From NCBI RefSeq assembly GCF_030013205.1, contig NZ_CP122648.1: 64,000 bases of DNA, one strand, 5' to 3'. Under the pieces are notes generated by a model. That model was not told the DNA's origin, made no database searches, and was given only the letters and a program-made list of their open reading frames with translations. Origin of the DNA: Escherichia coli (GTDB taxonomy: Bacteria; Pseudomonadota; Gammaproteobacteria; Enterobacterales; Enterobacteriaceae). Each line of letters opens with the position of its first letter. Position 1 is the first letter of the stretch. Made by a program: the position numbers and the translations under genes. Shown here piece after piece: positions 3,101 through 37,917 of this stretch.

Positions 3101-3732
3101 CCAATAAAGTAATCATTCTGTCCGGCTGAGACGGATGCTAATGCCTGATATAAATTTGTAAAAGAGATAATTGTTGCTTTTGGAAATGATTGATGAATTA
3201 CCTCATCTGGAGGGTAATTTGCTACCCGAGCAATATTTACTGGTTTTGATGAGGTAAGCGGTCTCATTGAATCGTGAAGGGTGGTGACCAGCGCCGGAAA
3301 GGTAATTATCAGCGGTTTGGTTGCAGCAATGTCATCATTAAGAGGCGGCGAAGCAACTAAATGTGATAACACTATATCGACTTCCCCTTCTGTAAGCGCG
3401 TCCATTGCTTTTTGATGATCTGCGTATTCCCGGAGTGTTAATTTGATATTTAACGCTCTTTTTAAAAGATTTAAATAATCAGCATTAATACCACGAACCC
3501 GTTGCTGCGAATCGGTATGCAACAAAGTAGCCGTTTGGGACTTGTGTACTGCAATCACAAGATTTTTTTTGCTCGCTAACCAACGTAATTCCTTGTTGCT
3601 CAGACGTAGTGGATCAAGCGTGACACGGTTGTTACTACTGATGCCACGATATTCGATGTAATCTTCGTCTGCGAAACTTATGGTCGACCAAAGACCACAA
3701 CAGAGAAGAATAATATAGGGTAAAAACTTCAT
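139..3732 (-). CDS. evgS: Hybrid sensor histidine kinase EvgS (two periplasmic solute-binding domains, HisKA/HATPase, receiver, HPt)
   Basis: 1197-aa ORF with HEIRTP H-box, receiver domain and C-terminal HPt; immediately downstream of evgA on the same strand. Confidence 0.95.
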   Translation of the reverse strand: MKFLPYIILLCCGLWSTISFADEDYIEYRGISSNNRVTLDPLRLSNKELRWLASKKNLVIAVHKSQTATLLHTDSQQRVRGINADYLNLLKRALNIKLTLREYADHQKAMDALTEGEVDIVLSHLVASPPLNDDIAATKPLIITFPALVTTLHDSMRPLTSSKPVNIARVANYPPDEVIHQSFPKATIISFTNLYQALASVSAGQNDYFIGSNIITSSMISRYFTHSLNVVKYYNSPRQYNFFLTRKDSVVLNEVLNRFVDALTNEVRYEVSQNWLDTGNLAFLNKPLELTEHEKQWIKQHPDLKVLENPYSPPYSMTDETGSVRGVMGDILNIITLQTGLNFSPITVSHNIHAGTQLNPGGWDILPAAIYSEDRENNVLFAEAFITTPYVFVMQKAPDSEQTLKKGMKVAIPYYYELHSQLKEMYPEVEWIKVDNASAAFHKVKEGELDALVATQLNSRYMIDHYYPNELYHFLIPGVPNASLSFAFPRGEPELKDIINKALNAIPPSEVLRLTEKWIKMPNVTIDTWDLYSEQFYIVTTLSVLLVGSSLLWGFYLLRSVRRRKVIQGDLENQISFRKALSDSLPNPTYVVNWQGNVISHNSAFEHYFTADYYKNAMLPLENSDSPFKDVFSNAHEVTAETKENRTIYTQVFEIDNGIEKRCINHWHTLCNLPASDHAVYICGWQDITETRDLIHALEVERNKAINATVAKSQFLATMSHEIRTPISSIMGFLELLSGSGLSKEQRVEAISLAYATGQSLLGLIGEILDVDKIESGNYQLQPQWVDIPTLVQNTCHSFGAIAASKSIALSCSSTFPEHYLVKIDPQAFKQVLSNLLSNALKFTTEGAVKITTSLVNIDDNHAVIKMTIMDSGSGLSQEEQQQLFKRYSQTSAGRQQTGSGLGLIICKELIKNMQGDLSLESHPGIGTTFTITIPVEITQQVATVEAKAEQPMTLPEKLSILIADDHPTNRLLLKRQLNLLGYDVDEATDGVQALHKVSMQHYDLLITDVNMPNMDGFELTRKLREQNSSLPIWGLTANAQANEREKGLNCGMNLCLFKPLTLDVMKTHLSQLHQVAPIAPQYRHLDIEALKNNTANDLQLMQEILMTFQHETHKDLPAAFHALEAGDNRTFHQCIHRIHGAANILNLQKLINLSHQLEITPVSDDSKPEILKLLNSVKEHIAELDQEIAVFCQQND

Positions 3733-14708: not shown

Positions 14709-14723
14709 TGGTGTCCCCTGCAG
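14709..14723. repeat. argW-derived att core fragment (matches the 3'-terminal 15 nt of argW)
   Basis: TGGTGTCCCCTGCAG is identical to the first 15 nt of the argW gene as read on the + strand at 40640-40654. Confidence 0.7.
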
Positions 14724-14796: not shown

Positions 14797-14997
14797 TTAC
14801 CCATTGGCGCGGCTTAAGAGCTTATTTTTGAATTCACAATGGTCACGATATAACCATCTTGCTCGCCCGTGGATAACTTTGGCTTTTGGCAGGTCGCCGG
14901 ACTTAATCCGGTCGTAGATGAAGGTTTTACCAAAGCCAGTATCAGCCATGATGAATTTCAAATCAACCAGGGAATCAGGCTGTAGTTCGTGTTGCAT
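14797..14997 (-). CDS. Excisionase / AlpA-family small HTH DNA-binding protein
   Basis: 66-aa ORF ...FIMADTGFGKTFIYDRIKSGDLPKAKVIHGRARWLYRD... fits the Xis/AlpA HTH pattern; sits between two att-core fragments. Confidence 0.6.
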   Translation of the reverse strand: MQHELQPDSLVDLKFIMADTGFGKTFIYDRIKSGDLPKAKVIHGRARWLYRDHCEFKNKLLSRANG

Positions 14998-15016: not shown

Positions 15017-15032
15017 GGAATCGAACCTGCAA
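15017..15032. repeat. Second argW-derived fragment (matches the next 16 nt of the tRNA 3' region)
   Basis: GGAATCGAACCTGCAA is identical to argW 40654-40669; together with 14709-14723 it covers 30 nt of the tRNA 3' end, but the two halves are separated by 293 bp. Confidence 0.6.
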
Positions 15033-15107: not shown

Positions 15108-15327
15108 CATGCGCTATCTGCGCCCATATCATCCAGTGGTTATAGCAGTCGTTGATGTCCTCTGCTTCGATAAGGAGAAGAAATTCCCAATTACTCAAGA
15201 GCTATACGAGCGACTGGAAAGCGTCATCCATGATTACGATGGTGAAATCAGTTTATGCGAGGCGATTGGCACACTTGAATTGCTGAAGCAGTCATTGATT
15301 GAAGGCGCGAAAGAGTCCTTAGCCTGA
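15108..15327 (+). CDS. Hypothetical small phage protein upstream of the terS remnant
   Basis: Open frame ending ...ITQELYERLESVIHDYDGEISLCEAIGTLELLKQSLIEGAKESLA; start chosen at the first ATG, uncertain. Confidence 0.3.
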
Positions 15328-15344
15328 AATAACAACTAAGTGAG

Positions 15345-15555
15345 ATGAATATGGCAGCACCAAAGGGCAACCGATTTTGGGAGGCCCGCAGTAGTCATGG
15401 GCGAAATCCTAAATTCGAATCGCCTGAGGCGCTGTGGGCTGCTTGTTGTGAATACTTCGAGTGGGTAGAAGCTAACCCGCTATGGGAGATGAAGGCATTC
15501 TCGTATCAGGGTGAAGTGATACAAGAGCCTATCGCCAAGATGCGAGCGATGACCA
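15345..15555 (+). pseudogene. Small terminase subunit (P22 gp3-like), N-terminal about 70 codons only
   Basis: [71 protein letters not shown] matches the P22 gp3 N-terminus as I recall it; the rest of the 157-aa ORF is out-of-context read-through overlapping the next gene. Confidence 0.7.
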
Positions 15556-15657
15556 TTATCCAAACCGTATGCCTGTTGGTAGCGGTAATCAGTTGGCGAA
15601 GTGGAACGGTTGGAGTTACTTCCAGCGAAAGGAACCTTGCGATAACGGGAGCGAATA

Positions 15658-17076
15658 ATGCCGATTCAGCAACTTCCGCTCATGAAAGGTGTCGGAAAAG
15701 ACTTCCGAAACGCCGACTATATCGACTATCTGCCAGTGAATATGTTGGCTACACCCAAAGAAATCCTGAACAGCAGCGGATATCTTCGCTCATTCCCGGG
15801 CATTGCCAAACGTTCTGATGTGAACGGCGTATCGCGCGGAGTTGAGTACAACATGGCGCAGAGTGCTGTTTATCGCGTGTGTGGCGGCAAGCTGTACAAA
15901 GGAGAAAGTGAGGTCGGTGACGTCGCAGGAAGTGGTCGCGTATCAATGGCGCATGGTCGGACATCACAGGCGGTAGGCGTTAATGGTCAACTGGTCGAGT
16001 ATCGTTATGATGGCGCGGTCAAAACCGTCTCAAACTGGCCTACAGACAGCGGATTCACGCAGTATGAGTTAGGTTCTGTTCGTGACATTACGCGCTTACG
16101 TGGGCGTTATGCGTGGTCAAAAGACGGAACTGATTCATGGTTTATCACTGACCTTGAAGACGAATCGCATCCTGACCGTTACAGCGCACAATATCGTGCC
16201 GAGTCGCAGCCTGACGGCATCATCGGCATCGGAACATGGCGAGACTTCATCGTCTGCTTTGGTTCATCGACGATTGAATATTTCTCCCTGACTGGTGCAA
16301 CCACCGTTGGTGCCGCTTTGTATGTTGCACAGCCATCACTGATGGTGCAGAAAGGTATTGCTGGGACTTACTGCAAAACGCCATTCGCTGATTCTTATGC
16401 GTTCATCAGCAATCCGGCAACAGGTGCGCCGTCTGTATACATCATCGGCTCCGGTCAGGTGTCACCAATCGCCAGCGCGAGCATTGAGAAAATCCTCCGC
16501 TCCTACACTGCTGATGAACTGGCTGATGGCGTGATGGAATCGCTGCGGTTTGATGCGCATGAGTTGCTGATTATCCATCTTCCGCGCCATGTCCTCGTGT
16601 ACGACGCATCTTCAAGCGCCAATGGTCCGCAATGGTGTGTGCTGAAAACAGGCCTGTATGACCATGTGTACCGCGCTATTGACTTCATTTACGAAGGCAA
16701 TCAGATAACGTGCGGCGATAAGCTGGAGTCTGTTACCGGGAAATTGCAGTTCGATATATCTTCACAATACGAAAAACAACAAGAGCATATTTTATATTCC
16801 CCTCTAATAAAGGCAGATAACGCTTTAATAAATGACCTTGAATTAGAAACATCTGGCGGCGTGTGTGATAGAATAGATAAAATATTTATATCAGCCACTA
16901 CAGATGGAATTAGTTACGGTCGTGAGCAAATGGTCGTATTACAAAAACCATTTGTATATGAAAATCGCGTTTTATGGCGAAAGGTTGGTCGAGTTAGACG
17001 CCTCATTGGATTTAAATTCAGAGTTATTGCAAAAGGTCCTGTCACATTATCAGGCCTTTCTATTCGTGTAACATAA
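15658..17076 (+). CDS. P22 gp10-like packaged-DNA stabilization / head completion protein
   Basis: 472-aa [52 protein letters not shown]..., same length and near-identical N-terminal region as P22 gp10 from memory. Confidence 0.85.
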
Positions 17077-17097: not shown

Positions 17098-17631
17098 ATG
17101 TTAAGTGAAAACGCAAAAGATATCGAAGGATATGAAGGACTGTACGCCATCACTAATGATGGTAGAGTTTACTCGCATTCAAGAGTAAATTTGAGGGGAC
17201 GTCTTATTAAGGGTAGGTGGCTGAAGCATAATCATAACGTAAATGGATATAAGTATGTGTGTTTATATAAGGATGGCGTAAAAAAGAACATACTAATACA
17301 TAAGCTTGTTGCATCTCACTTTGTTGGTGGATTTGCTGAAGGGTTACAGGTAAATCATATAGATGGTGATAAATATAATAATAACTATCTAAATCTTGAA
17401 TGGGTTACTCCATCAGGAAACATCTCACACTCATATGGATTGGAGTCGAGAGGTAATGTAAAAGGAGAAAGGAATGGTAATTCTAAAATATCTAATGATG
17501 ATGTCATAAAGATAAAAGAAATGGTTGCCAATGGATTTCCTCAGTGTGAAGTTGCTAAATTATTTGGAATTCACAATTCAAAGGTTAGTAGAATTGTAAA
17601 TGGCAAGGCATGGAGGCATGTTAATGGCTGA
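17098..17631 (+). CDS. HNH homing endonuclease (HNH + AP2/NUMOD-like DNA-binding region)
   Basis: 177-aa ORF with [17 protein letters not shown] and HKLVASHFV...[11 protein letters not shown] (HNH) motifs; free-standing between gp10 and the tail needle gene. Confidence 0.8.
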
Positions 17632-18055
17632 TTCGAATCTCAACACCCCTGTTATTGTGCAGGCTACGCGGCTCGATACATCAATACTTCCACGCAATAT
17701 CTTCTCGCAGTCGTATCTGCTTTACGTTATCGCACAGGGCACTGATGTTGGTAACGTGGCTAACAAGGCCAACGAGGCCGGACAGGGCGCTTATGATGCA
17801 CAGGTCAGGAACGATGAGCAGGATGTGATTCTGGTCGATCATGAAGAAAGAATTCGTCAGCTCCGCATTGAAGTAGATGACCATGAAATCCGTATTGCTG
17901 CGAATACTGCGGCAATTGCAGCGCTGGATGTCAGACTAACCACGGCTGAAGGAGAAATAGTCACCTTACAGGCTGACGTCAGCGCTCTTGATGGCCGGGT
18001 TCCCGAGAAATACAAAGAGCAGAATTACAAGAAAAGGCTCTGGACAGACAGATAG
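17624..18055 (+). CDS. Tail needle protein (P22 gp26-like), N-terminal domain conserved, short divergent C-terminus
   Basis: [43 protein letters not shown]...[48 protein letters not shown] matches the gp26 N-terminal coiled coil; only 143 aa versus about 233 in P22. Confidence 0.7.
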
Positions 18056-18582
18056 CCAGAGAAAGCAATCAGTTAAAGCTCGAAGAGCTAAAACAGAAAC
18101 AGGCAGATGTTCGGCAAAAGGCTGACATAGCCCGCGCTGACAGGCAGGCCGCCGCTCAGGGTGCGGTTGATACGTTCAGCACCGCGCTTGATTCTCTCAA
18201 CGAGACAGAGCAAAGCCCCGGCCTTTCAAAAGCAGTAGGAATTCGCTCAGCGTTTCCGACAGTTCCTGGCTCTGATGCGGCTAACTTTGAAGCAAGACTC
18301 GACACCTTTAAAGCTCAAACTTTCCTCCCTATGGTGCAGTCCCTGAAGGGGATGGGGGCTCTTTCAGATGCTGAGGGTAAAAAATTATCTGATGCGGTTG
18401 GTGCTCTAAGTCCCAAAATGAGTGAAAAGGCTTTTCGTGACTCTATCGGAAAGATTCGAAATCAGCTTGAAAGCAAGTTGAGCACTGTTAAAAAACAGTT
18501 TGATTATCAGGAGCCAGTACAGAATACGCCAGGGCAACAATCTACTACTGGCAGTAACTTTTCTTCACTATGGGGTGATTAA
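17986..18582 (+). pseudogene. Start-less coiled-coil ORF fragment (possible 3' part of a tail needle or ejection gene after a deletion or frameshift)
   Basis: Frame open from 17986 with no ATG until 18331; encodes ...LKLEELKQKQADVRQKADIARADRQAAAQGAVDTFSTALDSL...; stop overlaps the start of the next gene (ATGA at 18579-18582). Confidence 0.3.
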
Positions 18583-21064: not shown

Positions 21065-21734
21065 ATGACAGACATTACAGCCAATGTGATCGTATCGATG
21101 CCTTCGCAACTCTTCACTATGGCTCGTTCTTTTAAAGCCGTAGCCAATGGCAAAATTTATATCGGTAAAATTGACACTGACCCGGTAAATCCTGAAAACC
21201 AGATTCAGGTTTATGTGGAGAACGAAGACGGTTCTCACGTTCCTGTTGCACAGCCAATCATCATTAACGCCGCTGGTTATCCTGTATATAACGGACAGAT
21301 TGCCAAGTTCGTTACTGTGCAAGGCCATTCCATGGCTGTTTATGATGCGTATGGGGCGCAGCAGTTCTATTTTCCGAATGTGCTGAAGTACAACCCTGAT
21401 CAATTACGAACAATTCTTGAAGGAAGTATTATTGATTCTTCAGGCGATGTTTTTGGCTCTCCTGTGCGTGATTTTGAATATTTTGGCGCAGTAGGTGATG
21501 GTGTTGCCGATGACACTAATGCAATTAAATCCGCGGCTGCATGGGTTACTTCTGGAAATTATCGGCAAATAACTACCAGAGAACAAAAGATATATCGCGT
21601 AACATCAACCGTTGATTTTAATTTCGCTAACGGCCGCGGTCACTCGATTCTGATGAAGAGTCCAATCCGACCTGATGCTGGAACCGGCACTGCTTTTCTC
21701 ATTCAGAATACTCGAGACTCGGTATTCAATTTGA
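21065..21734 (+). pseudogene. Tailspike gene, 5' part (P22 gp9-type head-binding domain plus start of beta-helix), interrupted by IS1
   Basis: [58 protein letters not shown]... matches the P22 tailspike N-terminal domain; the frame is cut by the IS1 end at 21735. Confidence 0.85.
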
Positions 21735-21749
21735 GGTAATGACTCCAAC

Positions 21750-22253
21750 TTACTGATAGTGTTTTATGTTCAGATAATGCCCGATGACCTTGTCATGCAG
21801 CTCCACCGATTTTGAGAACGACAGTGACTTCCGTCCCAGCCTTGCCAGATGTTGTCTCAGATTCAGGTTATGCCGCTCAATGCGCTGAGTATAACGCTTG
21901 CTGATAACGTGCAGCTTTCCCTTCAGGCGTGATTCATACAGCGGCCAGCCATCCGTCATCCATACCACGACCTCAAAGGCCGACAGCAGGCTCAGAAGAC
22001 GCTCCAGTGTGGCCAGAGTGCGTTCACCGAAGACGTGCGCCACAACCGTCCTCCGCATCCTGTCATACGCGTAAAACAGCCAGCGCTGACGTGATTTAGC
22101 ACCGACGTAGCCCCACTGTTCGTCCATTTCAGCGCAGACAATCACATCACTGCCCGGTTGTATGCGCGAGGTTACCGACTGCGGCCTGAGTTTTTTAAGT
22201 GGCGGAAAATCGTGTTGAGGCCAACGCCAATAATGCGTGCACTGGCGCGACAT
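21750..22253 (-). CDS. insB: IS1 InsB' (transposase made as an InsAB' frameshift fusion)
   Basis: 167-aa ORF ending ...[18 protein letters not shown], overlapping insA in the -1 frame. Confidence 0.95.
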
Positions 22254-22447
22254 CCGACGCCATTCATGGCCATATCAATGATTTTCTGGTGCGTACCGGG
22301 CTGAGAGGCGGCGTAAGTGAACTGTAGTTGCCATGTTTTACGGCAGTGAGAGCAGAGATAGCGCTGATGTCCGGCGGTGCTTTTGCCGTTACGCACCACC
22401 CCGTCAGTAGCTGAACAGGAGGGACAGCTGATAGAAACAGAAGCCAC
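22172..22447 (-). CDS. insA: IS1 InsA
   Basis: 91-aa [46 protein letters not shown]... Confidence 0.95.
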
Positions 22448-26650: not shown

Positions 26651-27808
26651 TCACTCCACCTTTTCATCAATCCAGTCCGCCCACCACTGCATCATCTCCC
26701 GGCGCTTATCGAGATACTGAGCATGGTTGTAAATCCCGCGCACAGATCCGCCGTTGGCATGTGCCAGTTGCACTTCAATAGCATCAGCAGGCCATTCGTG
26801 CTCGTTCATAATCGTGCTGAATTCATGCCTGAATCCGTGACCGCTTTCCAGACCTTCATAGCCGATTTGTTTGATCACAAGCAGTACAGCGTTCTCGCAG
26901 ATTGGCTTCTTCTTATCGTTGCGCCCGGCAAAAACAAACTCTGATACTGGTTTAGTGATTGAGCTTAGTGTAGTGAGAAGTTCAACCACCTGGTCTGACA
27001 TCGGGACAACATGAATTTTGCGTCCCTTCATCACACTGGCGTCGATGGTGATAATCCTGTTTTCAAAATCGACGTTCTTCCATAGCATGGAACGAAGCTC
27101 TTTTGTTCTTAGGGCTGTGTAGCGTAAAACTTTGGTCGCAATGAGCGATACGATACTTCCTGAAAATGTTGCAAGTGCTTTGTTGAATGCCGGGATCTGG
27201 TCGGCAGGTAAAAACGGGAAGTTCTTCTTGCGGTATCCCTTCATGGCGTCAGCAAGGTCAGGTGCCGGGTTATATTTAGCCCTACCAGTAACAATAGCGT
27301 AACGGAAAACCTCGCCGCATCTTCTGCGTGCTTTGTTGGCTCGCTCCATTGCACCGCGATCTTCAAATCTGCGGATTACTTCCAGAAGTTGCATCGGCTC
27401 AATATCCTGAATTTCAAGGCCGCCGATGATAGGTAAAATGTCGTCATCAAACATTTTTGCAAGTTCATTTGCATAGCCTACTGACCAGACTTGCTTCTTG
27501 TGCTCGTACCATTCCTTGTAAATGGCGCTAAAGGAATTGTTGTTAGACGAAGCCTTTTTCGCCTTTACCGGATCGATGCCAACCGAGATGTCTTTCCTCG
27601 CAGTCCATGCTTTATCCCTTGCCTCTTGCAAAGTCATAAGCGGATATTTTCCGACGGTCAGGATTTTCTCCTTACCGTCAATCTTGTAGCGAAGCTGCCA
27701 TACCTTTTTCCCTGATACAGGGACATAAAGATACAGGCCATTACCATCGAGTAGGCGGTATGGTTTTTCTTTCGGCTTTGCTGCTTCAATCTGCTTAACG
27801 GTGAGCAT
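26651..27808 (-). CDS. intS: Tyrosine integrase, IntS/CP4-57 type (DUF4102 arm-binding N-domain)
   Basis: Start taken at MLTVKQIEAAKPKEKPYRLLDGNGLYLYV...; C-terminal ...HGFRHEFSTIMNE... catalytic region; adjacent to an argW-derived att copy. The track's upstream GTG start is judged less likely. Confidence 0.85.
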   Translation of the reverse strand: MLTVKQIEAAKPKEKPYRLLDGNGLYLYVPVSGKKVWQLRYKIDGKEKILTVGKYPLMTLQEARDKAWTARKDISVGIDPVKAKKASSNNNSFSAIYKEWYEHKKQVWSVGYANELAKMFDDDILPIIGGLEIQDIEPMQLLEVIRRFEDRGAMERANKARRRCGEVFRYAIVTGRAKYNPAPDLADAMKGYRKKNFPFLPADQIPAFNKALATFSGSIVSLIATKVLRYTALRTKELRSMLWKNVDFENRIITIDASVMKGRKIHVVPMSDQVVELLTTLSSITKPVSEFVFAGRNDKKKPICENAVLLVIKQIGYEGLESGHGFRHEFSTIMNEHEWPADAIEVQLAHANGGSVRGIYNHAQYLDKRREMMQWWADWIDEKVE

Positions 27809-27969
27809 GGGTAAAAATCCGGTGGGTAAAATTATTTTATCCACTTTTTACCCGTCATGGAGTGCGGCTGTCAACGATCTGACGCGAACCATGACGAACC
27901 GTGAATATACGGAAGGCTTGATATTCAGGGTATTTTGCGGACTGGTACGGATGGGAGCGAACTGATAAA

Positions 27970-27991
27970 TGGTGTCCCTGCAGAAATCATC
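27970..27991. repeat. argW-derived att copy at the junction of the two tandem islands
   Basis: TGGTGTCCCTGCAGAAATCATC versus argW TGGTGTCCCCTGCAGGAATCGA (one missing C, two mismatches). Confidence 0.7.
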
Positions 27992-28205
27992 TTAATTATT
28001 ATCATATTGATTTATATGTTATTTATTTTAGCCATCTTGTTTTTGTACCCGTTTTGTACCCGTTTTATTCTATTCCCAATTTAAACTTCGATTCTGGAAA
28101 GGTGAGTAGGGGAGGTTATCATTTTATGTATCATTGTTGTAGACACAGAATAATTACTCGCCTATCCTCACTGTATACACACCATAGATACAGGAGTTAA
28201 CCCAC

Positions 28206-28454
28206 ATGCGCACACAGGTTGTATTGCAAAAATGGGGTAACAGCATTGCCCTTCGACTAACGGGAAACCTTAAAACCGTTCCGGGTTTTTCAGTGGGTGA
28301 TATCGTCAACGTTGAAATTAGTGAAAAAGGGCTTTTTGTAGAAAAGCCTGCACGCCGTCGCCTGAGTGAAGCCGAACTACTCGCCGGGATAACGCCAGTT
28401 ACAGCGCACGCTGACGAAATTGCCACCCCATTCAATGAGGAGGTTGATTACTGA
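28206..28454 (+). CDS. MazE/PemI/ChpS-family antitoxin (AbrB/SpoVT fold)
   Basis: 82-aa ORF MRTQVVLQKWGNSIALRLTGNLKTVPGFSVGDIVNVEISEKGLFVEKP... Confidence 0.8.
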   Translation: MRTQVVLQKWGNSIALRLTGNLKTVPGFSVGDIVNVEISEKGLFVEKPARRRLSEAELLAGITPVTAHADEIATPFNEEVDY

Positions 28455-28798
28455 TGTTTGTACCTAAGCGTGGTGATATTTGCTGGCTGGATTTTGAGCC
28501 GCAGAAAGGAAAAGAGATCGGAAAGTATCGCCCGGCACTCATACTATCCCATGAGCAATATAACCGACTCACCGGGCTTGTCATATGCTGCCCCATAAGT
28601 ACGAGCATACGAAATGCTCCCACAGAAGTTCCGGTAACAAATCTGGACGCCCCCAGCGTGGTAGCAACCACACTCATTCAAACCCTTGACTGGCGTCAGC
28701 GGAAAGCGCGCTTAATCACAGAGGCAGAAGATGGGGTATTTAATGATGTGCTTGAAAGAGTCATTACTCTGATTGGTGGAGAGCATCTGCTTAAGTAA
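28454..28798 (+). CDS. MazF/PemK-family endoribonuclease toxin
   Basis: 114-aa ORF MFVPKRGDICWLDFEPQKGKEIGKYRPALILSHEQYNRLTGLVICCPISTS..., start overlapping the antitoxin stop. Confidence 0.8.
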   Translation: MFVPKRGDICWLDFEPQKGKEIGKYRPALILSHEQYNRLTGLVICCPISTSIRNAPTEVPVTNLDAPSVVATTLIQTLDWRQRKARLITEAEDGVFNDVLERVITLIGGEHLLK

Positions 28799-28841
28799 AA
28801 GGAGGGCTGAGAAGCCCTCAACGTTACCGGAAATTTCCTTG

Positions 28842-30113
28842 CTATTCTTTCCAGTCAATCCCATCCAGTAAGCACCCTGCCTCATATTGCCCCACCACCC
28901 AGTCAAGGTTACAGGACTCATAGAACGCGAGGCGATTATACTGAGGCTCGTTTTTTACCAGGCCACGAACGGAACCACGCTGCCAGTACAGACACAGATT
29001 GGCAAGAGGTGTGATCAATACAGCATTGTCCGGGAAAAATGGAACGGTCACAGCCGGGAGATTCCCCAGAACGGGATTTTTAATGATTTCCTCGTTAAGC
29101 AAAATTTCCTGATTCATCTGCGATGGATCAAGACGGTTTATCAAAGGCCATTGTTTACGGACCAGCGTATTGTGACTGCATACGGCCACAATGCCTTCCT
29201 GCCACTGTTCATCAATCATGGATTGCCAGGCATCCAGAACGAGCGCATCTATCGTATGGTGTGTACCGCGTATATTACTTTTCGGTGATGAGACAGAAAG
29301 GCCGCTGATAACCCTTCCCGCCGCTTCATTTCGAAACTTCTGCAACCAGCCCACGCCGCAATCGTCACGCCCCGGATATGTTCCGGGATCTGATACATCG
29401 GCATAGTGCGTACCGTTAAAACCAATCTGAATCAAATCCAGCCATTTCTGGCGTTCAAAAGCAGCCCGGGCGCTTCCTTCAAGACCGTTTGCGGATGCGT
29501 GAGCATCAACATTGTCGTAGTTCAGCGCAAAATCAAAATTAACCTGCTCGCAGCGGTAGCCCCTTGAAACCAGTGAATGCGCCTGTAGTGGCGAGCGGCG
29601 CTCGTGAGGTGGCGATGTACGTGCTAACGGCCCCGAAGCGTCTACCAGCACAACCTGACCTGATATATCCGTAACAGGCACGGGAGTTATTTCAGCAAGG
29701 AAATTTGCCTGCCATCCACTGGCAAGCGTTGCACTCTGGCGGGGGACGGGTTCAACTTCTGACGAATAGCGCGCAGTGTCACCGGAAAAGTGCAAATCCT
29801 TCGGATGCTTTCCGGTTATCGACTCGATAGCGCAATTGAAAACCATCTGAGACTGTTGATTTCGTTGTGATACAACAGAATCAGCAGTGCAATTATAACG
29901 CTCAATGCCGTCGTTATTACCCCCACCGCTTGCAGTATGCAGGGTGTGAAGCTCAAGCTCACGCTCCAGTTTTTGATATTCATTGTCCAGCGCGCGACGC
30001 GTCTCATCGCTTATGCTTGCTGTGTTTGCTTTCAGGCGATTCCGGGACATTAATCCCCTGAGTCGGCTCACTATATCAGCGCCGTGCAAATGTGGAGTAT
30101 TCAGACCGCCCAT
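28842..30113 (-). CDS. P2 gpN-family major capsid protein homologue with divergent N-terminal region
   Basis: Start taken at internal ATG 30113 (TAATG overlap with the upstream gene stop). C-terminal two-thirds align by eye with P2 gpN (...YRCEQVNFDF..., ...GWLQKFRNEAAGRV..., ...GNLPAVTVPFFPDNAVLITPLANL..., ...YESCNLDWVVGQYEAGCL...). Confidence 0.7.
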   Translation of the reverse strand: MGGLNTPHLHGADIVSRLRGLMSRNRLKANTASISDETRRALDNEYQKLERELELHTLHTASGGGNNDGIERYNCTADSVVSQRNQQSQMVFNCAIESITGKHPKDLHFSGDTARYSSEVEPVPRQSATLASGWQANFLAEITPVPVTDISGQVVLVDASGPLARTSPPHERRSPLQAHSLVSRGYRCEQVNFDFALNYDNVDAHASANGLEGSARAAFERQKWLDLIQIGFNGTHYADVSDPGTYPGRDDCGVGWLQKFRNEAAGRVISGLSVSSPKSNIRGTHHTIDALVLDAWQSMIDEQWQEGIVAVCSHNTLVRKQWPLINRLDPSQMNQEILLNEEIIKNPVLGNLPAVTVPFFPDNAVLITPLANLCLYWQRGSVRGLVKNEPQYNRLAFYESCNLDWVVGQYEAGCLLDGIDWKE

Positions 30114-30823
30114 TACTGCCACCCCCGGCAGAGTTCTCTGCCCTCCGCAAGGTCGCGCATTTTTTCTGGATTCTGTCGCGCCGCGCTCCATTGTACAGGT
30201 GAAGGGGCGCTCCTGATTGCGCAGCTTACTGAATCCGGGAGTTTCTCCGGGCAATAACGCAGCGGGCTGGAGGTGTCGCTTTCGGTATCGTTAATCCGGC
30301 CGCGAATCATCCCGACACTTTCAGCAGTATCTGCCGCTTTCAGTGTTTCGCATATTTTCTTTTCTGCGTTATACAGCGGCTGGCCAAGTAGCTCACATAA
30401 ACCACGAATCAATAACAGAACAGGGGTCAGCTCGTTAATCAGTTCGGGAAGTGCTTTTGCAAATATCTCTGCCCGCAACTTATTATCAATGCTTTCGTAA
30501 GCACAACCAGCCTCTGCCGCGTTATAACGACACTCCAGTAGCCTGATGCGCGCTTCATCATGCAATACCCGCAGACGCTCAAGATTTTCTCGCGCCACAC
30601 CCGCCTGAATGGATAATTTCGCGGAGGCTTCCGTTTTTACGCCCAGCGCAGACAGGATTGAGTTCTGCCAGTCACGATCGAGAGATTCCAGCTCCCCTTT
30701 CGTCTGTTCGATAGTCGCTTCCAGATTGGTGATTAATGATTCCTGTTCACTGAGTTTTGCCATGGCTGTATCAAACTGTGCTTTACATACCTGATGTTCG
30801 GCGCTTGCCTGAGTTATATCCAT
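30113..30823 (-). CDS. Coiled-coil protein coupled to the capsid homologue (candidate scaffold, Sid or Psu-like morphogenetic factor)
   Basis: 236-aa helical ORF immediately upstream of and overlapping the capsid gene start; assignment is positional. Confidence 0.4.
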   Translation of the reverse strand: MDITQASAEHQVCKAQFDTAMAKLSEQESLITNLEATIEQTKGELESLDRDWQNSILSALGVKTEASAKLSIQAGVARENLERLRVLHDEARIRLLECRYNAAEAGCAYESIDNKLRAEIFAKALPELINELTPVLLLIRGLCELLGQPLYNAEKKICETLKAADTAESVGMIRGRINDTESDTSSPLRYCPEKLPDSVSCAIRSAPSPVQWSAARQNPEKMRDLAEGRELCRGWQ

Positions 30824-30873
30824 TATTTGCTCCTGTAATACATTTTTTTACTTACGCCGATTTTTTCCATATT

Positions 30874-30934
30874 GCGTAATACATTCCAGCCGATTTTGTT
30901 CTCGTAATACGCTCACAATACTGTTGTATTACGC
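30874..30934. promoter_or_regulatory. Three palindromic operator-like sites GCGTA(A/T)TACGC in the divergent promoter region
   Basis: Sites at 30874-30882, 30903-30912 and 30926-30934 between the coiled-coil gene start (30823) and the RHH gene start (30989); further copies at 31014-31024, 31545-31555 and 31906-31913. Confidence 0.55.
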
Positions 30935-30988
30935 TTTCTTATATCGCGGGTGTTAAATCCCGGCATAAACAATCAGGGAGGCAACACG

Positions 30989-31222
30989 ATGAAAAAACAA
31001 AAGAAAATGCGATGCGTATTACGCTGTATTCGTATCCCGCACGAAATCGACCATAAAATAAATCAGATATGTGAGGACAGAGAGATGAACTACTCCCAGT
31101 GCGTCAGAATGTTTATCAGTCAGGGAATTAAGGCCGGGGAAAAGCAGGAAGAAGACCACAACGGGCGCAATGTAGCGGGGGATGTGTGGGCCTGGGCAAA
31201 TGACCAGAACCACACGACGTAA
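30989..31222 (+). CDS. Small ribbon-helix-helix-like putative transcriptional regulator
   Basis: 77-aa product MKKQKKMRCVLRCIRIPHEIDHKINQICEDREMNYSQCVRMFISQGIKAG...; GGGAGG RBS 8 nt upstream; divergent from the capsid operon. Confidence 0.45.
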   Translation: MKKQKKMRCVLRCIRIPHEIDHKINQICEDREMNYSQCVRMFISQGIKAGEKQEEDHNGRNVAGDVWAWANDQNHTT

Positions 31223-31272
31223 TACAGAAATAACGCAGCCGGTCACACTCGCTGGCTGTGTTATACAAATCA

Positions 31273-31455
31273 CTATGAAGTTTTCGACTTCCTGCGCTTA
31301 GTAATGCGTACAAACGACTCAAGCGTACAAAAACAAGCCCCACACTCAATATTGTTGCACTGGTAATACGTTCTGTAGATGTTTTGTTCGTGTTCTTCCA
31401 ACGAACGACCACGGGTGCGAGCTGAAGCGCCACAGGCCGGGCAAGGGAAAGACAT
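31273..31455 (-). CDS. Ogr/Delta-family zinc-finger late-gene transcriptional activator
   Basis: 60-aa ORF MSFPCPACGASARTRGRSLEEHEQNIYRTYYQCNNIECGACFCTLESF... with the CPxC...RT.R...YxQCxNxxCxxxFxTxES pattern of P2 Ogr. Confidence 0.8.
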   Translation of the reverse strand: MSFPCPACGASARTRGRSLEEHEQNIYRTYYQCNNIECGACFCTLESFVRITKRRKSKTS

Positions 31456-31817
31456 ATCGCGCTCCTCTTACTGGCGTGAAATTTAACCTATTATATCTTC
31501 CGTTGCCTCCTCTGGCTGTATCAAATAAATCCGCGATGGTCGCTGCGTATTACGCGCAGACACACCGTTCCCATGCTCACTCCTCACATTCCCCGTATCA
31601 ATTCTCTCTTGCCGTAAGAACGGCTCTGGCTGGCGATAAAACTAACCCGGTCAGGCATTCCCGCAGTCTTTAGCGAAAGATGTAATTTACCCCCTGAAAC
31701 GCGGGCTGTTCCCCCGTCACCTGCGCGCGAAAAACTCACCGTTTTTTGTGCACGCACGAAATCGCCCTCCGGGCGCGCCAGTACCGGGCCGGATGGGCAA
31801 AAAGTTACTCTAAAAAA

Positions 31818-31845
31818 TTGTGCAAATTTGTGCACTTTTGTGCAG
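31818..31845. promoter_or_regulatory. Three direct TTGTGCA repeats with 10-bp phasing (operator-like)
   Basis: TTGTGCAAATTTGTGCACTTTTGTGCAG; a fourth TTGTGCAC at 31746-31753. Confidence 0.45.
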
Positions 31846-32059
31846 ATGAACAACAGCGTCAAAAAGAGTGCTTTTGAGAGATTTTTTATGGCAACTGCGC
31901 CGCGTGTATTACGTTTTTACCATCCCCGCCGCGCATGTACATACTTCATTTTTCTGCCAAACAACAGGGCAACTCCCCGTGACTGACAGCCCCAAAAAAT
32001 CAATGATTAATGTTGCGTCTTTGTTAGAGGTCAGATCAGTTGTTTTGGGACTCTGCCTC

Positions 32060-32383
32060 AAAATCCGGTAGGGGGTGCGGAAACGGGTTACAAAGGTTAC
32101 ACCCCCCTAAAACACACTATAATCATATGATTTTAAAACATATTTCTTGTAACCTTTTTGAGGTTACAGAAGGTTACACGAGGTTACAGCTCTCAAAAAC
32201 AGATTAATTATCAATTAATTATAAATTTAACCTGTAACCAACAGTAACCACTACATAAAGGTTACATGTAACCCTGTTGTAACCCGTTTGTAACCTTTTA
32301 AATTTATTATAATATATTGATATATAATACGTTTTTCTGTTTGTAACCTTTGTAACCCGTTTCCGCACCCCCCCCCGGATTTT
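32060..32383. repeat. Block of about 14 GGTTACA/TGTAACC repeats flanked by near-perfect inverted repeats of about 40 bp (candidate attP-like or origin region)
   Basis: Left arm AAAATCCGGTAGGGGGTGCGGAAACGGGTTACAAAGGTTACA (32060-32101) is the reverse complement of the right arm (about 32339-32383); AT-rich core with both-orientation GTAACC repeats. Confidence 0.6.
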
Positions 32384-32628
32384 AGCGCGACCCTTTAAAA
32401 TGTTAATTAAACTCACTAACTCTGTATCACTCTCATTAACTCTCTATGATTGAAATGTATCTCACTGCTGTTTAACTCTTTCTGATAATCAAGAAAGGAG
32501 AGCAAAAAACTGATGGCGCTACCGCTGCAATATGGCCACCATCGCATTGCTGTTACCGTTGGCTTTGGCCAACAAAAAAGGCCAGTGGAAAACTGACCTC
32601 TTTTGCTGTGAATGTAGTGTTCTGCGGG

Positions 32629-33630
32629 TTACTCTACTGGCTCTTTTTGTTCAGTGAATGCCATGTTAGCTATCGGGTTAAACCTCATGGCATCCGCCAG
32701 ATAGTCGGGGGAAAAATGCGCATAAGTCATCGTTTGCTGGATAGTCGCATGTCCAAGAATCCGTTGTAATGTAACGATATTCCCACCGTTAATCATAAAG
32801 TGTGTGGCAAATGTATGACGCATGACATGCGTAGCCTGCCCCTTCGGTAAATCCGGCTTCACCTCCTGAAGGATCTCCCGGAACTTCAGATAATCAACCT
32901 GATACAACAACCCCGTCCGGCGGGTCTTAATCAGCGGCACGACCGAATCAGCCACAGGAACCGAACGGGATTTTCCGTTTTTGGTGTTAAAGAACGTCAC
33001 CCGGTTGCCAATGATGTGCTCTCCACGTAGTTCCGATGCTTCACTCCATCGGGCACCAGTAGAAAGACACAGAATGGCAACACGACGCGCATCACCCTCC
33101 AGTCGCTCAAGAAGCCGCTCAATCTCATCATCAGAAAGAAAGGCCATCTCTGTATTCTGAATTTTTAGCTTGCGTATACCGCGTACAGGGTTCGGGTTGT
33201 GAAAGACCTCAGCTTCAATCAGCACCGTGAACATGGTAGACAGAACGCACAAGTCACGATTAATGCTGGATGGCATTAAGCCGGCCTGTAATTTCTCTGA
33301 CCGATACTCAAGCATAAATTTTTGCGTCATCTGGCTGGCACGCGGATCTCCCATTTCACGAATCACTTTCTCCATCCGGATCCTGTAGGTATCACCGTAA
33401 GCCTGGTTACGGCCATCAAGCATCCACCATATATCAAGCAGCTCTGATAATCTCCGTCGATCAGCAGGTTTAGCCAGCCATGGGTTGTTATGGAAATTCT
33501 GTAAAATATGTTCTTTGAAGGCCTCCGCACTCCCTTTCCTGACAAAAATTTTACGTATCCGTTTGCCGTACGCCCCTTGGGGCCTGATATCGAGCAGCCA
33601 TCGCCCATCATCCATCTTTCTGATCGACAT
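32629..33630 (-). CDS. P2-type tyrosine integrase
   Basis: 333-aa ORF MSIRKMDDGRWLLDIRPQGAYGKRIRKIF...LSELLDIWW...INRDLCVLSTMFTVLIEAE...ILCLSTGARWSEA...GQATHVMRHTFATHFMINGGNIVTLQRILGHATIQQTMTYAHF matches P2 Int in length and motifs. Confidence 0.8.
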   Translation of the reverse strand: MSIRKMDDGRWLLDIRPQGAYGKRIRKIFVRKGSAEAFKEHILQNFHNNPWLAKPADRRRLSELLDIWWMLDGRNQAYGDTYRIRMEKVIREMGDPRASQMTQKFMLEYRSEKLQAGLMPSSINRDLCVLSTMFTVLIEAEVFHNPNPVRGIRKLKIQNTEMAFLSDDEIERLLERLEGDARRVAILCLSTGARWSEASELRGEHIIGNRVTFFNTKNGKSRSVPVADSVVPLIKTRRTGLLYQVDYLKFREILQEVKPDLPKGQATHVMRHTFATHFMINGGNIVTLQRILGHATIQQTMTYAHFSPDYLADAMRFNPIANMAFTEQKEPVE

Positions 33631-33632
33631 AC

Positions 33633-36302: not shown

Positions 36303-36314
36303 ATATAAATCCCC

Positions 36315-36344
36315 CCCACTGCACCTTTTGCAGTGGGTTTTTTA
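36315..36344. terminator. Hairpin plus T-run between the primase gene start and the upstream small ORF
   Basis: CCCACTGCA-CCTTTT-TGCAGTGGG followed by TTTTTTA; reads as a canonical terminator on the + strand. Confidence 0.4.
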
Positions 36345-36348
36345 TTAA

Positions 36349-36648
36349 TTACTCGTTGCTTATTGCTTTGGCAATCCCGGCGGTTTCGGCGCTATGCCAT
36401 GAAAAAATTCCGCCGGATGAATGCATACCAGATTTTATTGATTGTAATTCCCTATAAATAATGTTAGACAGAGATGCAATTTCTTCATTTATAATTTCTG
36501 CTGATGCTCCGCCATTTTTATCGTCAAAAACCACAGATATTAAACTGACGAGATTAATCACATCTGTGAGATCTTCCTTTGCACTTTCTGTAAAAAAGCC
36601 AACATATTCTCTATCTAAAAAATTTTCGCTATTCTGACGTTTAGACAT
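36349..36648 (-). CDS. Hypothetical protein (AT-rich, island-specific)
   Basis: 99-aa ORF, first of a run of small co-oriented genes upstream of the primase gene; no family recognised. Confidence 0.4.
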   Translation of the reverse strand: MSKRQNSENFLDREYVGFFTESAKEDLTDVINLVSLISVVFDDKNGGASAEIINEEIASLSNIIYRELQSIKSGMHSSGGIFSWHSAETAGIAKAISNE

Positions 36649-36715
36649 AAAAACTCCCCGACCCGTTAAGGCCGAAATATAAATTTAATTCAGTTATCAG
36701 TTGGTAATTCGGGAA

Positions 36716-36934
36716 TCAGGCGGAAAGCTGCGTCACCTTCAACGCCCTGAAATGTGTCATTCCCAGCTCTTCCAGCCCTTCGGCTGCGCGGCGTATGGCT
36801 TCGCCCGGTCCCGTTCCGTATACCGTTGCATGTGCATGTTTGGTTAACCCACGTTTATTAACGGCATAACCCAACACAAAGAAACGTTTTTCACCACTGC
36901 CATTATTTTTACGGGATGTTGAACGGGTTTTCAT
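36716..36934 (-). CDS. Hypothetical small protein
   Basis: 72-aa ORF; start overlaps the stop of the upstream gene (4-nt overlap). Confidence 0.35.
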   Translation of the reverse strand: MKTRSTSRKNNGSGEKRFFVLGYAVNKRGLTKHAHATVYGTGPGEAIRRAAEGLEELGMTHFRALKVTQLSA

Positions 36935-37119
36935 TTCTTCACCTTTACCACTGATGCTGTGAGTTCTTCTTCTGGCAACTGATATTTCGGCGCAATTTCT
37001 TCCGTATACCTGATAGCGTCCCTTGCCGCTTTTCCTTTTGATTTATATTTATATGTGGTCCGGTAGTTTTCTTCCTCTCCTGTTACCACATTACGCAATT
37101 TAATATGAATCTCGTACAT
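36931..37119 (-). CDS. Hypothetical small protein
   Basis: Start taken at MYEIHIKLRNVVTGEEENYRTTYKYKSKGKAARDAIRYTEE...; the track ORF extends 10 codons further upstream. Confidence 0.35.
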   Translation of the reverse strand: MYEIHIKLRNVVTGEEENYRTTYKYKSKGKAARDAIRYTEEIAPKYQLPEEELTASVVKVKK

Positions 37120-37121
37120 CG

Positions 37122-37824: not shown

Positions 37825-37885
37825 TTCTGCCTATTATTTCTTATTGTTGGTTTCAGGTGCACTAAATGCACATCCTTGACTGGTT

Positions 37886-37917
37886 GGCTCGCTAGCTTTA
37901 GCGAGCTTCTTTTTTGC
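37886..37917 (+). terminator. Plus-strand intrinsic terminator-like hairpin with no annotated plus-strand gene upstream
   Basis: GCTCGCTA-GCTT-TAGCGAGC followed by TTCTTTTTTG; a second hairpin GGTGCACTAAATGCACATCC lies about 20 nt upstream. Confidence 0.4.

What the first reader, a model, noticed from the sequence alone, without database searches (positions are those of the whole stretch)
15345..15660. Internal deletion in the prophage fuses the 5' 70 codons of the small terminase gene to what looks like the 3' end of the gene preceding gp10
The terS-like N-terminus stops matching after ...AKMRAMTI at about 15555. The next 100 bp, in another frame, end with a stop that overlaps the gp10 start codon (TAATG), as expected for the natural end of the upstream head gene. 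This implies one deletion removed terS-3', large terminase, portal, scaffold, coat and most of gene 4. The prophage therefore cannot package DNA but keeps tail and ejection genes.
Basis: partly seen in the sequence, partly recalled or inferred. Interest (0 to 1): 0.35.

Follow-up and report, generated by a model that had tools for sequence, protein, structure and literature searches.

The report
Prophage head-gene deletion at a recurrent breakpoint

Summary
**Observation confirmed.**
- Window 15351-15558 is the first 69 codons of a P22-type small terminase gene (97.4% identical to P22 gene 3).
- 15556/7-15658 is the last 33 codons plus stop of an IME10-type gene 4.
- An intact gene 10 follows from 15658.
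- The two pieces overlap by 3 nt (TTA). Against complete phages the gap is about 6.8 kb: the terS 3' part with pac, terL, portal, scaffold, coat and most of gene 4.
- RefSeq/PGAP already annotates both fragments as partial genes in 17 identical swine E. coli genomes, so the scar itself is ordinary.

**What is not ordinary.** The gene-4 endpoint (GGTTA|TCCAAACC) recurs.
- I found nine independent deletions, eight leftward and one rightward, with different partner sites: two in terS, and one each in orf80, portal, a region after the helicase gene and an early-left region, two at replication-gene starts, and gene 14.
- All use this same position.
- Every partner has TA exactly at the crossover.

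**Controls** (E. coli complete genomes, 240-nt queries):

| Query | Records truncated |
|---|---|
| Hot-spot site | 28 of 247 (all seven displayed start at the site) |
| Gene-10 internal | 0 of 910 |
| Sf6-type gene 4, same position | 1 of 247, at another position |

No transposon end, att-like core, stable hairpin, CRISPR spacer or homing-endonuclease immunity polymorphism explains it. The enzyme is unknown.

The parts
14709..14723 (.). Left attachment-site core (TGGTGTCCCCTGCAG), a copy of the argW 3' end; outer boundary of the prophage remnant
   Evidence: Exact second copy at 40640-40654 inside tRNA-Arg(CCU). A degenerate third copy (TGGTGTCCC-TGCAG) lies at 27970-27983, between intS and the neighbouring satellite.
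14797..14997 (-). torI (excisionase of the KplE1/HK620-type IntS/TorI module)
   Evidence: RefSeq annotation of the identical DNA, WP_001163428.1; ORF.
15171..15173 (.). Junction of a second, larger deletion (TAA microhomology). It joins the torI-proximal early-left region to the 3' part of an orf59c-like gene.
   Evidence: Homology to CUVET19-1937 ends at 15173 and homology to P22 41281 starts at 15171. The parents read CTCGATAA|CTCTG and GGGTAA|GGAGAAG.
15171..15350 (+). 3' fragment of the orf59c-like gene plus the spacer upstream of terS
   Evidence: 97.4% identical to P22 41281-41460.
15351..15558 (+). 5' fragment of the small terminase gene (P22 gene 3 type): 69 codons, pac site missing
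   Evidence: Pfam GP3_package. PGAP: 'terminase small subunit, incomplete, missing C-terminus'.
15556..15558 (.). Deletion junction: TTA shared by both parents (terS ...CCATTA|CNGG; gene 4 ...CCGGTTA|TCCAAACC)
15557..15658 (+). 3' fragment of gene 4 (head-tail adaptor): 33 codons plus stop, no start codon
   Evidence: Pfam P22_Tail-4 positions 128-153/159. PGAP: 'gp4 family protein, incomplete, missing N-terminus'.
15345..15818 (+). Chimeric 157-aa ORF: the TerS N-terminus reads out of frame through the gene-4 fragment into gene 10. Probably meaningless.
15658..17076 (+). Gene 10 (head closure / packaged-DNA stabilisation protein), intact
   Evidence: Pfam Phage_stabilise 1-468/469.
17098..17631 (+). 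Free-standing NUMOD4 + HNH_3 homing-endonuclease-like gene between gene 10 and gene 26
   Evidence: Pfam. Present only in some relatives.
17624..18001 (+). 5' fragment of the tail needle gene (gp26)
   Evidence: PGAP partial. Homology to P22 8234-8587 ends at 18001.
18331..18582 (+). C-terminal fragment of the gene-20-position ejection protein
   Evidence: The ORF matches the last ~83 aa of the 433-aa ORF of L130.
26651..27844 (-). intS integrase of the remnant

Best explanation
**What it is (shown).** The feature is the scar of a roughly 6.8-kb internal deletion in a P22-like (KplE1/HK620-type, IntS/TorI) prophage integrated at argW in a swine E. coli lineage.
- DNA was joined illegitimately at a 3-nt overlap (TTA).
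- The left parent is codon 69/70 of a P22-type small terminase gene. The right parent is a point 102 nt before the end of an IME10-type gene 4.
- terL, portal, scaffold, coat, most of gene 4 and the pac site were lost.
- The remnant therefore cannot make heads or package DNA.
- It is one of at least four lesions in a prophage that is far along in decay.

**What is unusual (shown).** The right endpoint is not random. The same phosphodiester, within the TA of GGT-TA-TCCAAACC, is an endpoint of at least nine independent deletions in other E. coli P22-like prophages.
- The deletions run in both directions.
- The partner sites are scattered over about 25 kb and share nothing except a TA at the crossover.

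**How it probably works (inferred).** This gene-4 allele carries a sequence that is cut or strand-transferred by a sequence-specific enzyme with a 2-nt TA stagger or overlap, and the end is then joined to another TA in cis.
- The enzyme is not identified.
- Candidates: an HUH-type nickase or rolling-circle initiator, a serine recombinase acting at quasi-sites, or a homing/defence endonuclease.
- My confidence figure covers the deletion and the reality of the sequence-specific hot spot. It does not cover the identity of the enzyme.
For: **Deletion and endpoints.**; independent PGAP annotation; 17 identical genomes.

**Recurrent endpoint, one row per independent event.**

| Event | Partner site | Junction |
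|---|---|---|
| Window / L001 | terS nt 208 | CATTA\|TCC |
| CUVET19-1937 (prophage otherwise complete) | terS nt 417 | TGATA\|TCC |
| L129 | portal, in-frame fusion | GATTA\|TCC |
| L094 = TW14425 | 7 codons into a replication gene | |
| L099 = L131 | 11 codons into another replication gene | |
| XH2172 | early-left region | |
| ZY22049 | after the helicase gene | |
| GPEC1240 | orf80 | |
| L130 (reciprocal, rightward) | gene 14 | GGTTA\|CCCGTG |

**Partner sites.** The intact parent sequences of all nine partners carry TA immediately before the crossover. No junction at the site lacks TA (zero hits).

**Census.** Among about 126 loci carrying the site, gene 4 is never truncated at any other position.

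**E. coli complete genomes.**
- 28 of 247 records are truncated in a 240-nt window centred on the site. All seven truncated rows that were displayed start at query positions 116-119, which is the site.
- 0 of 910 are truncated in a gene-10 window 0.5 kb away.
- 1 of 247 is truncated for Sf6-type gene 4 at the homologous position, and at a different place.
Against: - No enzyme was found.
- The site has no inverted copy.
- It has no significant hairpin (z about -1.1).
- It does not resemble the IntS core.
- There is no matching I-E CRISPR spacer.
- The site is identical in genomes with and without the nearby homing endonuclease genes.
- Only 7 of the 28 truncated E. coli records were inspected individually. 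About 4 remain unassigned to an event.
- CUVET19-1937 and XH2172 have identical right flanks. They may be two successive events in one lineage rather than fully separate lineages.
- The rightward class rests on one locus.
- Events in which both sides were resected would be invisible to my searches, so the apparent absence of end resection is partly an ascertainment effect.
Confidence: 0.8

Rival explanations
1. An ordinary random microhomology-mediated deletion. The shared endpoint is coincidence, or an artefact of how I searched.
For: 2-3 nt microhomology is typical of RecA-independent deletions. My pattern scans could only find junctions that keep the exact flank.
Against: - Nine different partners meet at one nucleotide.
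- An ORF-length census found no other truncation point in gene 4.
- BLAST-based counts that do not depend on exact patterns give 28/247 at the site against 0/910 and 1/247 in controls.
- All nine partners carry TA. On the assumption that each dinucleotide is equally likely, that has a probability of about (1/16)^9.
Confidence: 0.02
2. Shared ancestry. One old deletion created the gene-4 junction, and later deletions extended it leftward, so the right end is inherited rather than re-created.
For: CUVET19-1937 and XH2172 carry near-identical prophages with identical right flanks, and their deletions are nested.
Against: - A second deletion would have to end exactly at the old junction, or it would leave a piece of the old partner. 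No junction shows such a piece.
- The prophage backbones differ: lambda-type cI/cro/cII in L094, a lambda-like integrase in L130, IntS/TorI in others.
- The rightward event L130 keeps the opposite side of the site.
- Even nested events would need the half-site to stay hot.
Confidence: 0.05
3. Selection rather than mutation bias. Cells keep only deletions that retain exactly the last 33 codons of gene 4, for example for translational coupling or a promoter for gene 10.
For: Gene 4 stop and gene 10 start overlap or abut. Downstream genes such as gtr and the ejection genes could benefit the host.
Against: - Selection does not give single-nucleotide precision when other TA and longer microhomologies lie within 12 nt on either side.
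- The fusions are in different frames: one is in frame with portal, three read through out of frame, and one stops after 14 codons.
- L130 deletes the supposedly selected part.
- Sf6-type gene 4 has the same gene architecture but shows no pile-up.
Confidence: 0.04
4. The break is made by one of the NUMOD4-HNH homing endonucleases that sit next to gene 10 in this phage group, including the one at window 17098-17631. Failed homing repair then leaves deletions.
For: - Three families of such genes lie within 0.2-1.5 kb of the site.
- From my own recall, free-standing homing endonucleases can cut at a distance (T4 SegG). I did not check this in a paper.
Against: - The site and its 100-nt surroundings are identical in endonuclease-plus and endonuclease-minus genomes.
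- The cassette inserted between gene 4 and gene 10 carries a recoded gene-10 5' end. That points to a target in gene 10, not gene 4.
- Most deletion-bearing prophages have no such gene.
- The enzyme would then have to act in trans from a superinfecting phage.
Confidence: 0.1
5. CRISPR-Cas type I self-targeting. A spacer against AAG|TCCGGTTATCC... directs a Cas3 nick about 8 nt into the protospacer followed by unidirectional degradation, and survivors have lost the PAM and seed.
For: An AAG PAM sits 8 nt upstream of the break (sequence). There is a strong leftward bias (8:1). The right end is precise and the left ends are variable and distant.
Against: - No I-E array in 5,426 complete genomes carries that spacer in that or nearby registers.
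- The deletion-bearing genomes have only one match to the 240-nt site window.
- The rightward event and the strict TA rule are not predicted.
- I-F arrays were not tested.
Confidence: 0.03
6. Assembly or annotation artefact.
For: None beyond the general possibility.
Against: The junctions occur in complete genomes from unrelated projects and countries, each with consistent flanking gene order, and in IMG/VR and ENA contigs.
Confidence: 0.01

Closest known systems
Defective KplE1 (CPS-53) prophage of E. coli K-12 and other argW-integrated P22-like remnants (IntS/TorI module; PMC2951348, PMC3509656)
   Same: - Same integration site (argW).
- intS and torI lie at opposite ends.
- gtr genes sit next to intS.
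- Structural and early genes are progressively lost.
   Different: This remnant has a different set of scars. It keeps gene 10, a homing endonuclease gene and a gene-16-like gene, and it lies in tandem with a P4-like satellite.
Deletions with one endpoint fixed at a rolling-circle origin nick site (M13 gpII and pC194 Rep; Michel and Ehrlich 1986).
   Same: One endpoint is fixed to the nucleotide. The other is variable and shares only a few bases around the nick. The events are intramolecular deletions.
   Different: No HUH/Rep protein or origin is known or found here. The site lies in a structural gene of a lambda-like theta/sigma replicating phage. The resemblance is of pattern only.
Quasi-site recombination by Din-family serine invertases (Cin/cixQ; Iida and Hiestand-Nauer 1986-87).
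   Same: A good site recombines with many poor sites, chosen by identity of the 2-bp central dinucleotide. Here TA is invariant.
   Different: The site does contain TTATCCAAACC, which resembles a gix/cix half-site. However, the observed crossover is at the outer end of that half-site, 11-12 nt from where an invertase would cut. No invertase is linked to these prophages.
Microhomology-mediated (RecA-independent, alternative end-joining) deletions in E. coli, and prophage decay in general
   Same: Microhomology of 2-6 nt. Loss of lytic functions. The second scar at 15171-15173 looks like a plain example.
   Different: Such deletions are not expected to reuse one phosphodiester in independent lineages.

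Membership tests
P22 gp3-type small terminase (Pfam GP3_package) | N-terminal sequence of gp3 | tested here: met
   69 aa identical in length and nearly in sequence to P22 gp3 residues 1-69. Pfam E 2.4e-9.
P22 gp3-type small terminase (Pfam GP3_package) | Full-length 162-aa protein with oligomerisation core and C-terminal terL-binding tail | tested here: not met
   Homology stops at nt 208 of 489. It is a gene fragment, not a functional member.
P22 gp3-type small terminase (Pfam GP3_package) | pac site inside the gene (nt 268-289 in P22) | tested here: not met
   The pac feature at P22 4-25 lies beyond the last homologous base, P22 41668.
P22 gp4 head-tail adaptor (Pfam P22_Tail-4) | C-terminal segment | tested here: met
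   33 aa match profile positions 128-153/159. 95% DNA identity to IME10 gene 4.
P22 gp4 head-tail adaptor (Pfam P22_Tail-4) | Start codon and the N-terminal ~130 residues | tested here: not met
   The upstream DNA is terS.
KplE1/HK620-type argW prophage (IntS/TorI recombination module) | Integration in argW with a duplicated core, intS next to the tRNA side and torI at the far end | tested here: met
   Core at 14709-14723 and 40640-40654, with a degenerate core at 27970-27983. torI at 14797-14997 and intS at 26651-27844.
Simple microhomology-mediated deletion | Colinear parents, short overlap at the joint, no filler DNA | tested here: met
   TTA overlap with no inserted bases.
Simple microhomology-mediated deletion | Endpoints not reused in independent events | tested here: not met
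   Nine events share the endpoint. Controls.
Transposable-element end / IS-mediated adjacent deletion | Element or inverted terminal repeat present at the fixed endpoint | tested here: not met
   No second or inverted copy of the 20-mer in the window or in the complete CUVET prophage. No insertion at the site in IMG/VR.
Integrase secondary-site recombination (IntS) | Similarity of the site to the att core, with att as one partner | tested here: not met
   The core TGGTGTCCCCTGCAG is unrelated to the site. The partners are not att.
CRISPR self-targeting escape deletion (type I-E) | A matching spacer in an array | tested here: not met
   Single match per genome. Type I-F not tested.
Homing-endonuclease target site | Endonuclease gene nearby | tested here: met
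   NUMOD4+HNH_3 at 17098-17631 and homologues elsewhere.
Homing-endonuclease target site | Target differs between endonuclease-plus (immune) and endonuclease-minus alleles | tested here: not met
   The site and flanks are identical in both classes.
Site-specific strand transferase hot spot (HUH nickase or serine recombinase with quasi-sites) | One endpoint fixed to the nucleotide; partners share the crossover dinucleotide only | tested here: met
Site-specific strand transferase hot spot (HUH nickase or serine recombinase with quasi-sites) | Identified enzyme that binds or cuts the site | not testable with these tools
   No candidate is consistently linked in cis. This needs association analysis over thousands of genomes, or biochemistry.

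The most novel reading that the evidence does not exclude
The conserved 20-nt stretch of IME10-type gene 4 (GGTTA|TCCAAACCGTATGCC) is the target of a dedicated, still unknown site-specific nickase or recombinase, encoded by the host, a plasmid, a satellite or a rival phage. It works through a TA overlap and, as a by-product or on purpose, cuts head or tail genes out of P22-like prophages. That would be a new route of prophage disarmament or inter-element conflict.
Probability: 0.3. Interest if true: 0.8.

Novelty: new variant of a known kind. Interest (0 to 1): 0.5.

Why it matters
The scar in this window only tells us that one more prophage is dead, and the public annotation already says so.

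The recurrent endpoint matters more.
- About one in nine E. coli genomes that carry this gene-4 allele has the gene broken at exactly this nucleotide. Neighbouring DNA, and a different allele of the same gene, are essentially never broken.
- Prophage decay is usually treated as random deletion filtered by selection. A sequence-specific, TA-anchored breakpoint would show that part of it is enzymatically directed.
- It also offers a simple handle for finding the enzyme: a 40-bp site with a synonymous knock-out variant.

Tried and rejected
- **Transposon-end idea.** No inverted or second copy of the site in the window or in a complete relative.
- **IntS secondary site.** The att core is unrelated to the site.
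- **Hairpin or cruciform.** DNA folds of 120-125 nt around the site are not better than shuffles (z -1.07 and -1.08). Only weak inverted repeats exist: TCCGGTTATC/GATAACGGGA 80 nt apart, and a 5-bp stem CGGTT/AACCG with the break at the loop edge (and the sequence).
- **CRISPR I-E spacer.** Not found.
- **Homing endonuclease.** No immunity polymorphism at the site. The cassette in L062 points to a gene-10 target.
- **Din-invertase half-site resemblance.** The crossover is in the wrong place (reasoning from the sequence and remembered gix/hix sites).
- **RusA, RuvC, gyrase, Chi, type III restriction and EcoKI motifs.** None fits the position (reasoning from remembered consensus sequences, not computed).
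- **DnaA box.** TTATCCAAA fits the consensus TTATNCACA at 8 of 9 positions. My memory that it equals oriC box R3 could not be confirmed in the paper library.
- **Rpn nucleases.** The paper reports no sequence specificity (PMC5350276).
- **Metagenome and species-representative genome scans.** These added only a duplicate of the L099 event and chance 17-19-mers.
- **P22-proper gene-4 allele.** Only 8 loci, all intact, which is too few to judge.
- **Literature.** Searches for a described hot spot found nothing.
- **Insertions near gene 4.** A 197-aa ORF lies between coat and gene 4 in 18 loci. It is not an obvious nuclease and was not followed up.
Full report
**Context.**
- The window is E. coli chromosome around argW. 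It reads evgS/evgA, emrKY, dsdA, the csc sucrose genes, a prophage remnant, a second integrated element, tRNA-Arg(CCU) at 40640-40714, then yfdC, mlaA and fadL.
- The 2.8 kb around the finding is 100% identical in 17 complete genomes, all from pigs or wild boar, of the ETEC / O139:H1 type.
- The remnant runs from an att core at 14709-14723 (TGGTGTCCCCTGCAG, the 3' end of argW) to intS at 26651-27844 and a degenerate core at 27970-27983. A P4-like satellite then fills the space up to argW.
- With torI at one end and intS at the other, this is the KplE1/HK620-type module described for argW prophages (PMC2951348, PMC3509656).

**The observation.**
- P22 gene 3 aligns to window 15171-15558 at 97.4%, starting inside the upstream orf59c. 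From the P22-type ATG at 15351 that is 208 nt, or 69 codons, ending AKMRAMTI.
- IME10 gene 4 and gene 10 align from 15556 at 95.4%.
- The two homologies overlap in TTA (15556-15558). terS reads CCATTA|CNGG and gene 4 reads CCGGTTA|TCCAAACC.
- The gene-4 frame gives [33 protein letters not shown]. Its TAA shares an A with the gene-10 ATG.
- Pfam places the pieces in GP3_package, P22_Tail-4 (positions 128-153 of 159) and Phage_stabilise.
- Against IME10 the missing stretch is about 6.83 kb, and against P22 about 6.77 kb. It comprises the terS 3' part with pac, terL, portal, scaffold, coat, a small ORF and most of gene 4.
- PGAP annotates exactly this in the identical RefSeq genomes: 'terminase small subunit, missing C-terminus' next to 'gp4 family protein, missing N-terminus'.

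**Other damage in the same remnant.**
- A second junction at 15171-15173 (TAA overlap; parents CTCGATAA|CTCTG and GGGTAA|GGAGAAG) joins the torI-proximal early-left region directly to orf59c. The recombination, immunity, replication, nin, antiterminator and lysis genes are all gone (compare the complete relative).
- gp26 is cut at about 18001.
- Only the last ~83 codons of the gene-20-position protein remain (18331-18582).
- The tailspike is interrupted by IS1.
- So the statement that tail and ejection genes are kept holds only for gene 10 and the 665-aa gene-16-position ORF.

**The unexpected part.**
- A search with a 161-nt probe across the junction found four dog and cat isolates (CUVET19-...) in which terS and gene 4 are also joined, but 210 nt further into terS.
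- Their prophage is otherwise complete from torI to intS.
- The joint reads ACACCTGATA|TCCAAACC, which is the same gene-4 position.
- I then scanned IMG/VR for the right flank with and without the normal upstream bases. I also probed the 5,426 complete E. coli genomes with a 240-nt intact sequence centred on the site.

**The nine independent junction types.**
1. Window: terS nt 208.
2. CUVET19-1937: terS nt 417.
3. L129: portal near codon 490, in frame.
4. L094 (= strain TW14425): 7 codons into a replication gene behind lambda-type cI/cro/cII.
5. L099 (= ENA contig L131): 11 codons into another replication gene.
6. XH2172: early-left region.
7. ZY22049: just after the helicase gene.
8. GPEC1240: end of orf80.
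9. L130: the reciprocal type. It keeps gene 4 up to GGTTA and joins it to the 3' end of gene 14, deleting the gene-4 tail, gene 10, gene 26 and most of gene 14.

Sources.

**The TA rule.**
- For every event I recovered the undeleted partner sequence from relatives.

| Partner | Sequence at crossover |
|---|---|
| terS nt 208 | ATTA\|CNGG |
| terS nt 417 | GATA\|AGGG |
| portal | GATTA\|CCAG |
| L094 | ATCTA\|GCCG |
| L099 | GCATA\|ACCC |
| XH2172 | CGATA\|ACGC |
| ZY22049 | GGGTA\|TCCA |
| GPEC1240 | CACTA\|CCGG |
| gene 14 (L130) | GCGCTA\|CCCG |

- All nine have TA at the crossover, and nothing else is shared.
- Scans for junctions at this position without the T or without the A returned nothing.

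**Is it a real hot spot?**
- Among about 126 loci that carry the site, an ORF-length census found gene 4 truncated only at this position.
- In complete E. coli genomes, 28 of 247 records with this gene-4 allele are truncated inside the 240-nt probe. All seven truncated rows displayed start at probe positions 116-119, which is the site.
- A 240-nt probe inside gene 10, 0.5 kb away, matched 910 records with none truncated.
- A probe from Sf6-type gene 4, at the same place in the gene but with a different sequence, matched 247 records. One was truncated, and elsewhere.
- The effect therefore follows the sequence, not the gene position or the locus.
- The right flanks of the events differ by 0-5 per 100 nt, like intact phages do. 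CUVET19-1937 and XH2172 are identical there, so they may be two events in one lineage.
- Shared descent cannot produce different partners abutting the same base without leaving a remnant of the older partner, and none is seen.

**What could do it.** The pattern has three elements: an endpoint fixed to the nucleotide on either side, a strict 2-nt identity with no resection of the retained end, and partners in cis. This is what enzymes with a covalent or concerted strand-transfer step leave behind. I tested what I could:
- No transposon-like inverted end.
- No resemblance to the IntS core.
- No significant DNA structure.
- No I-E CRISPR spacer, although an AAG PAM lies 8 nt upstream and the leftward bias would fit Cas3.
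- No immunity polymorphism linking the site to the NUMOD4-HNH genes that populate this region. One of those cassettes carries a recoded gene-10 5' end, which points to a target in gene 10.
- The TTATCCAAACC string resembles a gix/cix half-site, but the crossover lies at its outer end, not at the position an invertase would cut.

One weak lead: three of the eight leftward partners lie within about 330 nt of the P22-type pac site, and two lie within 35 nt of a replication-gene start. That hints that breaks or single-stranded DNA at those places supply the second partner. I did not test this.

The enzyme remains unknown. I commit only to a sequence-directed cut or strand transfer at the TA, followed by joining to another TA in cis.

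**Verdict.**
- The finding is real and correctly interpreted. Taken alone it is an already-annotated scar of prophage decay and of low interest.
- Its right endpoint is a member of a recurrent, sequence-specific, TA-anchored breakpoint that I could not find described and could not explain.
- That raises the overall interest to moderate.

Noticed in passing
window 27970-40640 (capsid gene 28842-30254, primase 33633-36302, integrases 32629-33630 and 39199-40503, MazEF-like pair about 28204-28796): - The element between the remnant and argW looks like a P4-type satellite: an integrase next to the tRNA, a toprim primase, an Icd-like gene and an ogr/Delta-like gene.
- It also encodes a P2-family major capsid protein with a ~180-aa N-terminal extension, a second integrase-like gene and a toxin-antitoxin pair.
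- A satellite with its own P2-type capsid gene is unusual.
   Followed up: partly
window 15017-15032: - A 16-nt exact copy of the next segment of tRNA-Arg (GGAATCGAACCTGCAA, also at 40654-40669) lies on the inner side of torI.
- The 15-nt att core lies on torI's outer side.
- So torI sits between two consecutive pieces of argW-derived sequence.
- The segment is conserved in relatives (L099).
   Followed up: no
L062 1572-3663 (same in L052, L012, L021): A NUMOD4-HNH gene, 43% identical to the window's, is inserted between gene 4 and gene 10. It sits behind a duplicated native 93-nt gene-10 5' fragment and in front of a full gene 10 whose first ~35 codons are recoded. This looks like a homing cassette carrying an immune target allele.
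   Followed up: partly
L135 (GPEC1240) about 2611: The same prophage that has the orf80::gene-4 junction has a second junction only 9 nt into gene 10 (ATGCCGATT|TGTGC). It joins to the immI (arc/ant) region, leaving the 102-nt gene-4 tail as an isolated island.
   Followed up: no
L003 (strain 74-2) 3347-3616: Another argW remnant has a different scar. The torI-proximal region is joined to the last 141 nt of the coat gene, with gene 4 intact. So not all head-gene deletions in this family use the gene-4 site.
   Followed up: no
Partner sites of the nine events (terS nt 208 and 417, orf80 3' end; first 7-11 codons of two replication genes): The variable endpoints seem to cluster near the P22-type pac site (3 of 8) and at the start of the replication initiator gene (2 of 8). 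The numbers are too small for a firm statement.
   Followed up: no
18 IMG/VR loci, e.g. L101, between coat and gene 4: A 197-aa ORF (MSVMIFQAGGDTKIWGRK...) replaces the usual small ORF between the coat gene and gene 4. Function unknown.
   Followed up: no
window 21065-22447: An IS1 copy (21750-22447) sits about 330 bp downstream of the tailspike fragment (21065-21422), which ends just after its head-binding domain. The gtrA / DUF2142 / glycosyltransferase genes next to intS are intact, so the remnant may still modify O-antigen.
   Followed up: no
IME10-type gene 4 N-terminus (e.g. L005 8498-8560): The annotated gene 4 of IME10-type phages starts with a variable run of QS repeats (CAGAGC units). 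This makes the coat-to-site distance vary in steps of 6 nt among loci (650-734 nt).
   Followed up: no
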